From: an uncultured Candidatus Saccharibacteria bacterium
Lineage (GTDB): Bacteria; Patescibacteriota; Saccharimonadia; Saccharimonadales; AWTP1-31
Direction: 5' to 3'
DNA: 46,720 nt
Assembly: GCA_964629815.1 (NCBI GenBank)
Contig: CAZVTA010000003.1
Span: 1-46,720 of the forward strand
The position numbers and the translations under genes were made by a program. How positions within the stretch are numbered: the first letter of the stretch is position 1; the number at the start of each line of letters is the position of its first letter. Positions 7,188 through 46,720 of the stretch are shown piece after piece. A model generated the notes under the pieces. It ran no database searches, was not told where the DNA came from, and saw nothing but the letters and a program-made list of their open reading frames with translations.

Positions 7188-7265
7188 TGGGGCGAGTGAT
7201 GGGGATCAAACCCACGACCTCCAGAGCCACAATCTGGCGCTCTAATCGACTGAGCTACACCCGCC
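7188..7265 (-). tRNA. tRNA-His(GUG) with encoded G-1 and CCA
   Basis: Reverse complement folds as G-1, GCGGGTG acceptor, D arm GCTC-AGTCGATTA-GAGC, anticodon arm CCAGA-TTGTGGC-TCTGG, T arm GTGGG-TTTGATC-CCCAT, C73, CCA. Confidence 0.85.
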
Positions 7266-8706: not shown

Positions 8707-8783
8707 TGGTACTCCGGGAGGGACTCGAACCCCCAACCTAATGGTTAGAACCCACTTGCTCTATCCAATTGAGCTACCGGAGC
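8707..8783 (-). tRNA. tRNA-Arg(UCU), CCA encoded
   Basis: Reverse complement: GCTCCGG acceptor, GCTC-AATTGGATA-GAGC, AGTGG-GTTCTAA-CCATT (anticodon TCT), GGGGG-TTCGAGT-CCCTC, A, CCA. Confidence 0.85.
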
Positions 8784-12594: not shown

Positions 12595-12620
12595 GAATTA
12601 ATAGTTATTGTACCATAATT

Positions 12621-12649
12621 AAAAGTAAAAACCCCTGGTTCTACAGGGG
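12621..12649 (-). terminator. Intrinsic terminator after tRNA-Gly
   Basis: On the minus strand: CCCCTG-TAGAAC-CAGGGG followed by TTTTTACTTTT. Confidence 0.6.
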
Positions 12650-12652
12650 TCG

Positions 12653-12727
12653 TGGTGCGGGTGGCGGGAGTCTAACCCGCGTCGCCTGCTTGGAAGGCAG
12701 GAATAATAAACGTTATACCACACCCGC
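12653..12727 (-). tRNA. tRNA-Gly(UCC), CCA encoded, with non-canonical D and T loops
   Basis: Reverse complement: GCGGGTG acceptor, D arm GTAT-AACGTTTA-TTAT, anticodon arm CCTGC-CTTCCAA-GCAGG, variable CGAC, T arm GCGGG-TTAGACT-CCCGC, CACCCGC, A, CCA. Confidence 0.75.
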
Positions 12728-12837
12728 TCGGTGACTACTTGTTTGGCCAGACAAGGCATACAAGCAGTTATTTCTCTGTTTGGATTCCCAAACGACAGGG
12801 GTGATTATAGCATGTATACGCCGAGCAGTAAAACGCT

Positions 12838-16876: not shown

Positions 16877-18397
16877 CTATACTTCGTGCAAAATTGAGAT
16901 CTTGGCGCCAAGACTATTAAGACGTTCGGCGAGATCTTCGTACCCACGGTTGATGGTGTATACATTACGCAGCATGCTTATGCCGGGTGCAGCAAGCATG
17001 CCGAGCAGAATGATGACTGCTGGCCGAATGCCACTTGGTGCGACAATGTCGGCAGCTTTAAACTTGGTTGGTCCATTGATAAAAACGCGGTGAGGATCTG
17101 CTAACTCGAGATTCACACCAATCTTTTTCATTTCGGTAAACATAAGTGCACGGTCTTCGTAAACCCAGTCGTGTATTAGGGTTCGGCCTTTAGCAAGTGC
17201 GGCAATAGGAACAAAATAAGGCAAATGATCGATATTGAGACCTGGGAAGACGCTTGGGTGTAGCTTTTCTGCGGGCGCAACTAATTTGCCGTTATGTTTC
17301 ATGATAGTAATGTCTACAAGGTCGGTCTGGCCGTTATCGGCTTTGTATGGTTTTGTTTGCTTGTATGACAGTCCCATTTTTTCAAGTTTAAGAAGCTCTA
17401 GTTCTAAAAAGTCGATAGGTGCGCGTTTAACCGTAATGCTTGAGTTCGTCACGACCGCCGCAGTAATAAACGTCATGGCTTCAACTGGATCTTCGCTTGG
17501 GTTATACGAAATGTTTTTCTTAATATTTTTTATGCCACGAACCCGCAAAGTACTTGTGCCGATACCTTCGATTTTTACACCAAGCTTCTTTAGGAAAAAG
17601 CATAGGTCTTGCACCATGTAGTTTGCACTTGCCATTTTTATGACCGTCTCGCCTTCAAAGCCGGCTGCCGCCATCAGGATATTTTCGGTTGTTGTATCGC
17701 CTGATTCGTAGAGTACAACAGGTCGATCAGGCAGTTGTTTTTTGACCATAACGTCATAATGGCCAGACTTTGTGCGTACTTGTACGCCAAACTCCTCAAG
17801 ACCGTACAGGTGTGGAAGCACGGTTCGTTTGCCCAGCTCGCATCCACCCGCATACGGAATAGGGAAGTGTTTGAGGTGATGCATCAAAGGGCCAATAAAC
17901 ATAATGACACTGCGTGTTTTTTTTGCAGCTTCTTTGTCCATAAAGGCAAGGTCAAGTGTTGCAGGCGGTTTTATTTCTAGGTCGTTACCAATCCAGCGAA
18001 CTGCTACGCCAATACTACGGAGTACTTCGATGAGTCGTTTAACTTCTTCAATATTTGGAGCATTTTTTATCCGTGTCGTTCCTTTGTTGAGAAGGCTTGC
18101 ACACAAAATGGCAACGGTAGCGTTCTTAGAGCTTTTAAGAGTAATACTGCCAGAAAGCGTATGACCGCCTTCAATGCGTAAGTTGACGGCTCCACTTGAA
18201 ATACTGATGAGTGGTTTATTGAGCACATCGCTAATTCTTGCTAGGGTATCAAGGCTGAGGTTTTGCTTGCCGTGCTCAATACGATTAACTGCAGATTGGC
18301 TGGTGCCAAGCTGTTTAGCGAAGGCAGATTGTGTAAGACCACGTTCTTGTCGTATCTGGTAAATTAGTTGCCCAATTTTTTCATTTGTGGTGGACAT
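16877..18397 (-). CDS. murA: XRE-type HTH domain fused to UDP-N-acetylglucosamine 1-carboxyvinyltransferase
   Basis: Residues 1-65 are a Cro/C1 HTH (LTQSAFAKQLGTSQSAVNRIEHG). The rest aligns with MurA, including the catalytic loop GGCELGKR and the C-terminal INRGYEDLAERLNSLGAKI. Confidence 0.85.
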   Translation of the reverse strand: MSTTNEKIGQLIYQIRQERGLTQSAFAKQLGTSQSAVNRIEHGKQNLSLDTLARISDVLNKPLISISSGAVNLRIEGGHTLSGSITLKSSKNATVAILCASLLNKGTTRIKNAPNIEEVKRLIEVLRSIGVAVRWIGNDLEIKPPATLDLAFMDKEAAKKTRSVIMFIGPLMHHLKHFPIPYAGGCELGKRTVLPHLYGLEEFGVQVRTKSGHYDVMVKKQLPDRPVVLYESGDTTTENILMAAAGFEGETVIKMASANYMVQDLCFFLKKLGVKIEGIGTSTLRVRGIKNIKKNISYNPSEDPVEAMTFITAAVVTNSSITVKRAPIDFLELELLKLEKMGLSYKQTKPYKADNGQTDLVDITIMKHNGKLVAPAEKLHPSVFPGLNIDHLPYFVPIAALAKGRTLIHDWVYEDRALMFTEMKKIGVNLELADPHRVFINGPTKFKAADIVAPSGIRPAVIILLGMLAAPGISMLRNVYTINRGYEDLAERLNSLGAKISILHEV

Positions 18398-20663: not shown

Positions 20664-21689
20664 CTATATAATGGCAGGTTCTTGTTTGAGTTCGATACCA
20701 AATTTTCGTCGTACATCGTGAATGATTCTATTTCGAAACGCAAGTAAATCAGCCGTTGTTTTTGCGGAAACGTTTACAAGTACAAGCGCCTGGTGTTTCC
20801 ATGTACCCATGCCAGTATCGGTATCGACGATACCTTTTGTGTAGCCCACCTGTTCCATGAGCCATGCCGCCGATAGCTTTATGCCTTTTTTCGCGTCCCA
20901 GTGGGGCATGTCAGGAAATTTTTGCAAAAGTTTTGTCGCGCTTTCGGTATCGATAATTGGGTTAGCAAAGAACGAACCATTGTTGGCAACATGTTTTGGA
21001 TCCGGCAATTTTGACGCACGTATAGCTACAACAGCATCGCGAAGATTTTGTGGAGAAAAATCGCTTATATTGTGTTGTTGTAGGTATGTATCGAGACTTG
21101 CATAGAAGGGAGGAGCAAGCCATTGGTAATTCAGGCGGAGTGTAATCGAAATAATTGCAAACCTTCCCTGCTTTGCGCCGTTAAAGATGCTGGTGCGGTA
21201 TCCAAACTGGCAATCGCTATCTGGAATGTTAACAACCGTATCATTTTCGCTGTCGTAAGCCTCTACGTTTATAAGAACATGAGAAATATCTTGCCCATAC
21301 GCACCAACATTTTGCACGGGGGTTGCTCCTGCGGTGCCGGGAATAAGCGACAAGCATTCAATACCAGATAGTCCTGCTGCGACCGTTCGCGCGACGCAAT
21401 CATCCCAGTTCTCGCCCGCTGCCATTTTTACGTATGCATGTTCATCATCTTCCTTGGTAATCGAAAAACCTGAAATACGATTGACGATAACAAGGCCGTT
21501 GTAGCCGTCGTCTGCCCAGATGATATTACTTCCTTCGCCGATGACAATCCATTTATGTTTGTGTTGTTTTGCCCAGCGAATTGCATCGATTAGTTCATGG
21601 GCGCTGTAAACGGTAGCGAGTTTTTTTGCTGCTCCGCCTAGGCGCATTGTCGAATACAGACGAAGATCGACATTATTTTTAGTCCGCAT
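20664..21689 (-). CDS. murB: UDP-N-acetylenolpyruvoylglucosamine reductase
   Basis: N-terminal FAD-binding region (STMRLGGAA...GEGSN) and a C-terminal MurB domain pattern. Confidence 0.9.
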   Translation of the reverse strand: MRTKNNVDLRLYSTMRLGGAAKKLATVYSAHELIDAIRWAKQHKHKWIVIGEGSNIIWADDGYNGLVIVNRISGFSITKEDDEHAYVKMAAGENWDDCVARTVAAGLSGIECLSLIPGTAGATPVQNVGAYGQDISHVLINVEAYDSENDTVVNIPDSDCQFGYRTSIFNGAKQGRFAIISITLRLNYQWLAPPFYASLDTYLQQHNISDFSPQNLRDAVVAIRASKLPDPKHVANNGSFFANPIIDTESATKLLQKFPDMPHWDAKKGIKLSAAWLMEQVGYTKGIVDTDTGMGTWKHQALVLVNVSAKTTADLLAFRNRIIHDVRRKFGIELKQEPAII

Positions 21690-41222: not shown

Positions 41223-41406
41223 ACTAGAGTCCTTTCGATTATGTACTAATCGACAATCAATAAAGAGGGTTGATTGTCCGGTTACGCTACTGGCTCCTAT
41301 TTGCTCAAGCGTCCATGTACAAGCAAATACTCATAGCCTACAACCATGTGAATGGTTATATAAACAATAACACTAATGTAATAAAAAGTCAATTTCTCGG
41401 AGTTGA

Positions 41407-45718: not shown

Positions 45719-46720
45719 CTACAGTGCGTTTAAGAGTAGGTTGTAAATTTTTTCTGGCATAGCGTGGGGAGCAAGTGCTAAATAGTCGTAGTTGCTGGGG
45801 ATTTCGAAGCTATACTGTGTTAGTTCGGGATACTTTTTGCCGGCCATGCGCATTGCAGTACGAGATTCTTTTATTTCGCCTACACAATCGAGTGGTTTCT
45901 CGCCTGAAATACCGAGTAAGTTCTTGTACATTTCTTCTAGGTTTTGATCAGTGAGCAGGTTCTTTCCCCATATACGAGTGAGTGTAGACTCTTCGCAGAA
46001 AGGTGCCAGGGCCAAGCATGTAAAAGCGCATTTTGCACAGGAGCCACACCACCATATTGAGTTGCTATTATGGGTAAAAGCACGGTTGCACGAGCTAAAT
46101 ACATCTATATATTTACTGATTGCTAATTCACAAAACAGCTGAGCGATATGTATTTCACTAAGGGGCCGCAAAAATGAGTAATAGTTCGGTCCAGACTCGC
46201 CAAATGTTTGGTGCAAGTTTTTTTGATATGCTTTTTCAAAGTCTAATGACTTGGAATATTGATGGTTGATTTCGGTATTTTTGTAGACGAGCGTTGCTTC
46301 GTTGGCTGAGTTTTCGTTAGAAACGATTACATCTTTATAGCCTGCAAGTATGGCAACGACAGTGCCCACGCAGGCAATAATTGCCGATATGGGTATATGA
46401 CCGTTGTACGCATCTGCTTTATTGAGATCAACAAGCTGTTTATCCCAGTCGCGCTCTACCCAGAAATGCTGCAAGCCGATTTTTTCTACCAGCGGTGCGA
46501 GTTGATTACGGTGGTTAAGGCTCCACGTGGCAACCTTTGGTTGGTCTTTAAGAATCTCGGCTGTCACGAGCGAGTCTTTGCCGCCGCCGATACCTATGAG
46601 TAGGCCAGAGCCATGATATGTCGAGGCAATAGGGTTAGACACGTGCTGAGAGTGTGGAAAGGATATGTTTGTGTTTGGGTCGAGTTTATTGACGTAAAAG
46701 AATTCACCCAAACCTTTTTG
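45719..46720 (-). CDS. PP-loop (adenine-nucleotide alpha-hydrolase superfamily) protein with a C-terminal Cys cluster; N-terminus may lie outside the window
   Basis: GIGGGKDS (SGGxDS-like PP-loop) and the CGSCAKCAFTC cluster. The frame stays open to the window edge upstream of the TTG chosen by the ORF track. Confidence 0.6.
   Translation of the reverse strand, partial: QKGLGEFFYVNKLDPNTNISFPHSQHVSNPIASTYHGSGLLIGIGGGKDSLVTAEILKDQPKVATWSLNHRNQLAPLVEKIGLQHFWVERDWDKQLVDLNKADAYNGHIPISAIIACVGTVVAILAGYKDVIVSNENSANEATLVYKNTEINHQYSKSLDFEKAYQKNLHQTFGESGPNYYSFLRPLSEIHIAQLFCELAISKYIDVFSSCNRAFTHNSNSIWWCGSCAKCAFTCLALAPFCEESTLTRIWGKNLLTDQNLEEMYKNLLGISGEKPLDCVGEIKESRTAMRMAGKKYPELTQYSFEIPSNYDYLALAPHAMPEKIYNLLLNAL

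What the first reader, a model, noticed from the sequence alone, without database searches (positions are those of the whole stretch)
12653..12727. tRNA-Gly(UCC) lacks G18/G19 and C56, with a possible U19:A56 replacement pair
Seen: the tRNA folds with normal acceptor, anticodon and T stems. Its D loop is AACGTTTA (A14 and A21 kept, positions 18/19 are UU). Its T loop is TTAGACT (position 56 is A rather than C). Its D stem has one U:U and one G:U. U19 and A56 could still pair, so the elbow contact appears to have covaried rather than decayed. The gene has its own terminator and lies immediately downstream of the sortase/GT2 operon. Established knowledge: G18, G19 and C56 are near-universal in elongator tRNAs. 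As far as I recall, the staphylococcal tRNA-Gly isoacceptors dedicated to peptidoglycan interpeptide-bridge synthesis, rather than translation, are known for lacking the D-loop GG and the canonical T-loop. Inference: this may be a specialised (cell-wall or other non-ribosomal) glycine donor, or simply a lineage-specific elbow variant. No Fem-type aminoacyl-transferase is visible in this window.
Basis: partly seen in the sequence, partly recalled or inferred. Interest (0 to 1): 0.6.

Follow-up and report, generated by a model that had tools for sequence, protein, structure and literature searches.

The report
Glycine tRNA with swapped elbow pair
This is the ordinary, essential glycine tRNA of a tiny host-dependent bacterium (Saccharibacteria), in which one near-universal G:C contact at the tRNA's elbow is replaced by a matching U:A pair; it is not a cell-wall-only tRNA, but the sister glycine tRNA carries such a swap in nearly every genome of the class examined.

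Summary
Against 30 orthologues G18 is invariant; only G19:C56 changed, to U19:A56. That pair covaries perfectly (G:C 16, A:U 11, U:A 4, none unpaired). The U:U and G:U in the D stem are normal for this tRNA. It is the genome's only reader of GGA (17.6% of Gly codons). It keeps U55 and the EF-Tu pair G51-C63, and sits at a conserved Gly-Arg-His tRNA locus; the GT2 gene is absent beside 20 orthologues. The 99.7%-complete genome has no Fem or MprF transferase, so the staphylococcal-type reading is refuted. What remains: all three Gly tRNAs here, plus His and Ala(GGC), carry A:U or U:A at 19:56. In Saccharimonadia tRNA-Gly(GCC) had C56 or G56 in 0 of 101 genomes; other Patescibacteria had G19:C56 in 103 of 105. 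It flips A:U to U:A without returning to G:C, which hints at selection for a weak elbow, cause unknown. A19:U56 also occurs in Bacteroides and phages. The scan noted this same tRNA and other elbow swaps on other DNA; I found no paper on the class-wide pattern.

The parts
12653..12727 (-). tRNA-Gly(UCC) gene with encoded CCA; sole GGA-decoding tRNA of the genome
   Evidence: ARAGORN; Rfam 62.3 bits; genome-wide tRNA set
12707..12714 (-). D loop A14 A15 C16 G18 U19 U20 U20a A21; G18 at 12711 is kept, U19 at 12710 replaces G19
   Evidence: gap-free alignment to 30 orthologues, column 17 invariant G
12669..12675 (-). T loop U54 U55 A56 G57 A58 C59 U60; A56 at 12673 replaces C56 and complements U19
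   Evidence: sequence; pair count GC 16, AU 11, UA 4, none unpaired
12692..12694 (-). anticodon UCC in a normal 7-nt loop (C32, A38; no extra pair)
12666..12678 (-). inner T arm, including the G51-C63 pair (12678:12666) known as a strong EF-Tu determinant
   Evidence: role of 51-63 from PMC9976931 and my own knowledge
12656..12656 (-). discriminator A73 (bacterial tRNA-Gly normally U73)
   Evidence: PMC9976931
12804..12832 (-). sigma-70-like promoter TTTACT-17-TATAAT with extended -10 TG; a related TATAATCACC motif precedes a tRNA-Met and tRNA-Gln elsewhere in the genome
   Evidence: consensus match only
12728..12800 (-). about 70-nt 5' leader folding into two hairpins; not found elsewhere in the genome, longer than in most relatives
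   Evidence: prediction only
12620..12651 (-). intrinsic-terminator-like hairpin plus T run
7188..7264 (-). tRNA-His(GUG) with the reverse swap A19:U56; part of the conserved Gly-Arg-His tRNA locus
8707..8783 (-). tRNA-Arg(UCU), canonical G19:C56; conserved neighbour of tRNA-Gly(UCC) in 19 of 20 relative loci

Best explanation
A housekeeping elongator tRNA-Gly that decodes GGA (and probably GGG by wobble) on the ribosome. Its elbow is intact: G18 can still contact U55, U54-A58 is kept, and the outer pair is U19:A56, a Watson-Crick pair of the same shape as G19:C56. Shown: sequence, numbering, covariation, sole-decoder status, absence of Fem. Inferred: RNase P, uL5 and the L1 stalk stack on the flat face of the 19:56 pair and so accept any Watson-Crick pair, while a mismatch is purged. 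The gene is one instance of a Saccharimonadia trait in which Gly tRNAs (nearly always GCC, sometimes UCC and CCC) and some Ala and Pro tRNAs carry a weak A:U or U:A elbow pair. For this UCC isoacceptor the swap is optional, since G:C alleles are commoner. For the GCC isoacceptor it looks selected; my preferred but unproven reason is tuning of ribosome binding or translocation.
For: Single UCC gene among 42 tRNAs in a 99.72%-complete genome; one UCC gene per genome is the rule (107 matches in 105 genomes). GGA is 17.6% of 11,335 Gly codons. G18 invariant and 19:56 always paired in 31 orthologues. Class sample of Gly(UCC): 68 G:C, 36 A:U, 3 U:A, no mismatch (counted by hand). The identical or near-identical 75-nt gene occurs in five other families (0-8 differences), which argues for purifying selection and against sequencing error. 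RNase P class A is full length with its ACAGAAA and GGUGAAA joiners; uL1, the uL5 loop motif, TruB and a Dus are present. Elbow contacts are described as stacking on the exposed pair (PMC4810234; PMC5309774). Single changes at 19 or 56 killed a yeast suppressor tRNA (PMC4117946), whereas an A19/U56 double variant of tRNA-Gly was processed normally by a protein-only RNase P (PMC4797305; not the bacterial enzyme). Bacteroides oleiciplenus has A19:U56 in its only detected Gly(UCC) gene.
Against: The genome is in three contigs, so a second UCC gene in a gap is not formally excluded. The 23S L1-stalk segment falls in an assembly gap and could not be inspected. Samples of relatives are not phylogenetically independent, and alignment A1 was chosen to include swapped forms, so its counts are not frequencies. 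No evidence here identifies why weak pairs are favoured.
Confidence: 0.9

Rival explanations
1. Dedicated non-ribosomal glycine donor for cell-wall or other synthesis, like staphylococcal NP1-NP3.
For: U19 is shared with the staphylococcal NP tRNAs (PMC4574755); UCC anticodon; Fem-type genes are common in the class (51 of 61 genomes); a sortase and GT2 lie upstream.
Against: Only GGA reader; G18, U55 and G51-C63 kept and no extra anticodon-loop pair, unlike NP tRNAs (PMC13443448); no Fem, GNAT-6 or MprF domain in this genome; GT2 in 0 and sortase in 1 of 20 orthologous loci.
Confidence: 0.02
2. The class-wide swap adapts translational Gly and Ala tRNAs to dual use by Fem transferases.
For: The swapped isotypes are mostly Gly and Ala (70 of 73), the amino acids Fem/MurM enzymes typically use; Fem is widespread in the class.
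Against: No correlation: 8 of the 10 Fem-less class genomes, including this one, still have a swapped Gly(GCC), and 55 of 61 phylum genomes have Fem while Gly(GCC) outside the class is G19:C56 in 103 of 105.
Confidence: 0.05
3. On the cause of the swap: pure drift. Any Watson-Crick pair works, and the class inherited one early change.
For: Gly(UCC) exists as G:C, A:U and U:A in one class; A19:U56 is scattered over many isotypes in phages and bacteria; whole tRNA alleles appear patchy across families, which can mimic repeated origins.
Against: Gly(GCC) flips between A:U and U:A in otherwise identical genes (three pairs with no other difference, in at least two distinct backgrounds). That needs two transversions, yet the two-transition return to G:C is seen in 0 of 101 genomes. 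The bias to Gly and Ala is strong.
Confidence: 0.4
4. On the cause: the weak pair offsets strong G/C-rich codon-anticodon pairing, tuning decoding, translocation or E-site release.
For: Swaps concentrate in Gly, Ala and Pro (72 of 73) and in Gly, Ala and Arg in a GTDB-wide sample (107 of 121; pattern biased to one D-stem type). The elbow is contacted in all three ribosomal sites and affects translocation and frameshifting (PMC4810234).
Against: Pro(GGG) and Arg(GCG), equally G/C-rich, are canonical in this genome; most bacteria manage with G19:C56 in the same tRNA; no kinetic data.
Confidence: 0.3
5. On the cause: escape from a factor that reads G19:C56 on Gly tRNAs (host or phage nuclease or toxin, or an integrating element that uses the TTCGA T-loop site).
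For: The pattern 'any Watson-Crick pair but G:C' fits avoidance; A19:U56 is common in phage tRNAs; tRNA alleles look exchanged between lineages.
Against: No such factor was identified; C19:G56 would also escape but was never seen; no T-box in the genome.
Confidence: 0.15
6. Pseudogene or assembly error.
For: Weak D stem in energy folding.
Against: Identical gene in genomes of other families; compensated change; normal Rfam score; sole decoder.
Confidence: 0.01

Closest known systems
Canonical bacterial elongator tRNA-Gly(UCC) (glyT type)
   Same: G1-C72, C2-G71, C35 C36, U8, A14, G18, A21, U33, G53-C61, U54, U55, G57, A58; G51-C63; U13.U22 and G10.U25 as in many orthologues; single copy.
   Different: U19:A56 instead of G19:C56; A73 instead of U73.
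Staphylococcal non-proteinogenic tRNA-Gly(UCC) NP1, NP2, NP3/NEW (PMC13443448, PMC4574755)
   Same: UCC anticodon, U at 19, alpha2-type GlyRS in the cell.
   Different: They lack G18 and U55, have an extra anticodon-loop pair and weak EF-Tu determinants, are additional to translational isoacceptors and serve FemXAB. None of that holds here.
tRNA-Gly(UCC) of Bacteroidales with A19:U56 (e.g. Bacteroides oleiciplenus, locus L178)
   Same: Compensated weak elbow pair with G18 kept, in an apparently sole GGA reader.
   Different: A:U polarity; confined to a subgroup of Bacteroidia while their Gly(GCC) is canonical. Seen in my scans; I found no paper describing it.
Phage tRNAs with A19:U56 or U19:A56 (IMG/VR sample)
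   Same: Same compensated swap (111 A:U, 9 U:A, 2 A:A of 122).
   Different: Accessory genes, mostly Arg and Thr, not an essential sole decoder.

Membership tests
Non-proteinogenic (Fem-substrate) tRNA-Gly | Additional to a translational tRNA for the same codons | tested here: not met
   one UCC, one CCC, one GCC gene
Non-proteinogenic (Fem-substrate) tRNA-Gly | Lacks both G18 and G19 | tested here: not met
   G18 kept, invariant column
Non-proteinogenic (Fem-substrate) tRNA-Gly | Lacks U55 in the T loop | tested here: not met
   T loop UUAGACU
Non-proteinogenic (Fem-substrate) tRNA-Gly | Weak EF-Tu determinants in the T stem | tested here: not met
   G49-C65, C50-G64, G51-C63 by sequence; binding not measured
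Non-proteinogenic (Fem-substrate) tRNA-Gly | Extra base pair shortening the anticodon loop | tested here: not met
   7-nt loop CUUCCAA
Non-proteinogenic (Fem-substrate) tRNA-Gly | FemXAB/MurM encoded in the genome | tested here: not met
   PF02388, PF13480, PF09924 no match; tblastn and phmmer with class Fem proteins negative
Elongator tRNA-Gly | Cloverleaf with intact acceptor, anticodon and T stems and CCA | tested here: met
Elongator tRNA-Gly | Gly identity set G1-C72, C2-G71, C35, C36, and a cognate GlyRS | tested here: met
   sequence; alpha2 GlyRS at G000 C1:71998-73653
Elongator tRNA-Gly | Bacterial discriminator U73 | tested here: not met
   A73 in all three Gly tRNAs and in class Gly(GCC); A73 is the archaeal/eukaryal state (PMC9976931)
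Elongator tRNA-Gly | G18:U55 and U54:A58 elbow contacts possible | tested here: met
Elongator tRNA-Gly | Watson-Crick pair at 19:56 (canonically G:C) | tested here: met
   U:A; covariation 31 of 31 paired. The pair is met, the G:C identity is not.
Elongator tRNA-Gly | Expressed, charged and used on ribosomes | not testable with these tools

The most novel reading that the evidence does not exclude
Saccharimonadia are under class-wide selection against a G:C elbow pair in their main glycine tRNA, extending in some lineages (this genome most of all, 5 of 42 tRNAs) to the other Gly tRNAs and to Ala, Pro and His. The identity of the 19:56 pair would then be an isoacceptor-specific tuning or evasion element, not merely a conserved structural pair, a use not described in the papers I could search.
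Probability: 0.4. Interest if true: 0.55.

Novelty: new variant of a known kind. Interest (0 to 1): 0.33.

Why it matters
G19:C56 is taught as near-universal and is the face by which RNase P, uL5, the L1 stalk and T-boxes hold a tRNA. Essential sole-decoder tRNAs with U:A or A:U there show that shape, not sequence, is required. A whole bacterial class that apparently avoids G:C in one isoacceptor gives a natural, testable case for asking what the pair's strength does in translation. Practically, a missing D-loop GG or TTC should not be taken as a sign of a cell-wall tRNA or pseudogene in these genomes. The single gene at these coordinates is a modest variant.

Tried and rejected
Non-ribosomal donor: rejected. 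Functional link to sortase/GT2: rejected, not conserved; the conserved neighbours are tRNA-Arg(UCU) and tRNA-His. Fem correlation: rejected. Misfolding avoidance (D-loop GG pairing with the CC anticodon): folding 83 natural Gly tRNAs with G:C, A:U or U:A at 19:56 gave little difference for this gene (cloverleaf gap 3.5 versus 3.4 kcal/mol) or for class Gly(GCC) on average (3.35 versus 3.1), while canonical genes outside the class mispair more and stay G:C; not supported, though the genome's own GCC gene does gain 2 kcal/mol. Loss of elbow readers: uL1, RNase P RNA, uL5 motif, TruB and Dus are present. T-box: none. GlyRS type: alpha2 throughout the phylum sample, and the long insertion 1 is not shared by class relatives, so it does not explain the pattern. 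23S L1 stalk: in an assembly gap; my pattern search in five relatives found nothing and is uninformative. Low-threshold ARAGORN gave only noise, with no second intron-less UCC gene. Literature: no paper held with A19-U56 or U19-A56 terms, or on Saccharibacteria tRNA elbows; two frameshifting papers were not held. The library lacks most subscription papers, so this is not proof of novelty. Type II tRNAs and changes at 18:55 were not surveyed in relatives.

Full report
Observation. The window is the start of contig C3 of an 814-kb, 3-contig genome, 99.72% complete. ARAGORN and Rfam both call tRNA-Gly(UCC) at 12653-12727 on the minus strand, 62.3 bits, an unremarkable score among the genome's tRNAs. 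The D loop is AACGUUUA, the T loop UUAGACU, and CCA is encoded. A promoter-like site lies at 12804-12832 and a terminator-like hairpin at 12630-12651 (consensus matches only).

Numbering. A gap-free alignment of 31 distinct Gly(UCC) genes from relatives shows that the G at 12711 lies in an invariant column, the first G of the canonical loops AACGGCUA and AAUGGCUA. G18 is therefore kept, as are U54, U55, G57 and A58. Only 19 and 56 differ. Counting that pair gives G:C 16, A:U 11, U:A 4 and no mismatch (the set was chosen to include variants). G10.U25 occurs in 25 of 31 and a non-standard 13:22 in 18 of 31, so the weak D stem is normal for this isoacceptor.

It must translate. The genome has 42 tRNA genes with one each of Gly UCC, CCC and GCC. 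By standard wobble rules only U34 reads GGA, which makes up 17.6% of 11,335 Gly codons in long ORFs and occurs three times each in EF-Tu and uL5. The T stem has G51-C63. Staphylococcal non-proteinogenic tRNAs lack G18-G19 and U55, carry an extra anticodon-loop pair, have weak EF-Tu determinants and are extra genes serving FemXAB (PMC13443448; PMC4574755; PMC9976931). None of this applies. FemAB, Acetyltransf_6 and LPG-synthase profiles find nothing, nor do Fem proteins from class relatives. In 20 orthologous loci the gene sits by tRNA-Arg(UCU) (19) and often tRNA-His; GT2 appears in none and sortase in one.

The wider pattern. In this genome five tRNAs are swapped: Gly UCC and GCC (U19:A56), Gly CCC, His and Ala GGC (A19:U56). 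That is the highest count among the genomes sampled (others up to three). In 61 order-level genomes, 73 genuine type I tRNAs lacked C56, all compensated at 19: 44 Gly(GCC), 9 Gly(CCC), 7 Gly(UCC), 10 Ala(GGC), 2 Pro(UGG), 1 His (counted by hand). Across the class, 70 of 76 genomes showed a swapped Gly(GCC) and none was found in the other six. A direct search for Gly(GCC) with C56 or G56 found 0 of 101 class genomes, whereas the same pattern found G19:C56 in 103 of 105 matches outside the class. One canonical GCC gene with an atypical body was seen in G046. Gly(UCC) is mixed: 68 G:C, 36 A:U, 3 U:A. Outside the phylum, A19:U56 is found in Bacteroidales Gly(UCC), some Clostridia Gly(GCC), Ala(CGC) of several groups and many phage tRNAs; U19:A56 is rarer, 18 of 121 GTDB matches (capped, pattern-biased samples).

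How it works. The elbow presents the flat face of the 19:56 Watson-Crick pair, on which ribosomal elements and RNase P stack (PMC4810234; PMC5309774). Single changes at 19 or 56 inactivated a yeast suppressor (PMC4117946), and an A19/U56 tRNA-Gly was processed normally by a protein-only RNase P (PMC4797305). I infer that U19:A56 preserves the surface, which explains the perfect compensation. The readers I could check look ordinary: uL1, class A RNase P RNA, the uL5 loop motif, TruB and Dus. The 23S L1 stalk is in an assembly gap.

Why weak pairs. For Gly(UCC) the swap is optional. For Gly(GCC), genes that are otherwise identical occur as A:U and as U:A, in at least two distinct sequence backgrounds. 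That flip needs two transversions through a mismatch, while return to G:C needs two transitions and can pass through G.U, yet is not seen in 101 genomes. This suggests selection for a weak pair or against G:C. A caveat: tRNA alleles are patchy across families. This gene is identical to those of two other families but differs at 20-25 positions from all 12 own-family genes compared, and tRNA-Arg behaves likewise, so allele exchange may inflate or hide events. Fem use, misfolding, T-box regulation and GlyRS type do not explain the pattern. Translational tuning and evasion of a tRNA-targeting factor remain, both untested, and drift is not excluded.

Novelty and verdict. No held paper describes these swaps, but the library is incomplete. 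Earlier notes of this scan record the same tRNA in other genomes and other elbow swaps; they are leads, not support. The finding as posed is refuted; the gene is an ordinary essential tRNA-Gly with a compensated elbow, a new variant of a known kind. Its interest comes from the class-wide fixation in the sister isoacceptor. Interest 0.33.

Noticed in passing
window 7188-7264 (-): tRNA-His(GUG) has A19:U56; it was the only swapped His tRNA in the order- and class-level samples.
   Followed up: partly
L331:2822-3073 (G000 C2): tRNA-Ala(UGC) and tRNA-Ile(GAU) between 16S and 23S lie on the strand opposite to both rRNA genes.
   Followed up: no
L245:433-1773 and L246:1480-2799: Two histidyl-tRNA synthetase genes, both above the NCBIfam hisS cut-off, in an 814-kb genome.
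   Followed up: no
L242:103-1761: alpha2 GlyRS of 552 aa with an insertion-1 region about 70-120 aa longer than full-length class relatives (434-488 aa open frames); atlas hits are GlyRS insertion 1.
   Followed up: partly
window 12656; L288-L327: tRNA-Gly discriminator is A73 in all class Gly(GCC) genes examined but U73 outside the class; some class genomes have A73 in GCC and U73 in UCC. DTD was not properly searched.
   Followed up: partly
L248-L267: tRNA-Gly(UCC) and tRNA-Arg(UCU) come as discrete alleles about 20 substitutions apart, distributed patchily across families at a conserved locus, suggesting allele replacement.
   Followed up: partly
L328-L330: FemAB-type genes, often in tandem, occur in 51 of 61 class and 55 of 61 phylum genomes but not in this genome.
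   Followed up: partly
window 45719-46711 (-), 16877-18397 (-), 20664-21689 (-): MurL-like epimerase (below cut-off), an HTH-fused EPSP-synthase-fold protein (probably MurA) and MurB.
   Followed up: no
window 41267-41350 (-): Cyclic di-GMP-II riboswitch, 62.1 bits.
   Followed up: no
window 12728-12800 (-): Two-hairpin leader between the promoter and the tRNA, single copy in the genome.
   Followed up: partly
G000 C1:150698-151312 (outside the window): tRNA-Asn(GUU) with a 540-nt intron in the anticodon loop; such introns are reported for Patescibacteria as I recall.
   Followed up: no
G281 C11:4780-4965: A duplicate with a Gly(GCC)-type body but a UCC anticodon next to the GCC gene; G238 has a similar CCC copy, suggesting anticodon switching by duplication.
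   Followed up: no
L178 genome (G341) and G343: tRNA-Arg(ACG) with A19:U56 in Bacteroidia.
   Followed up: no
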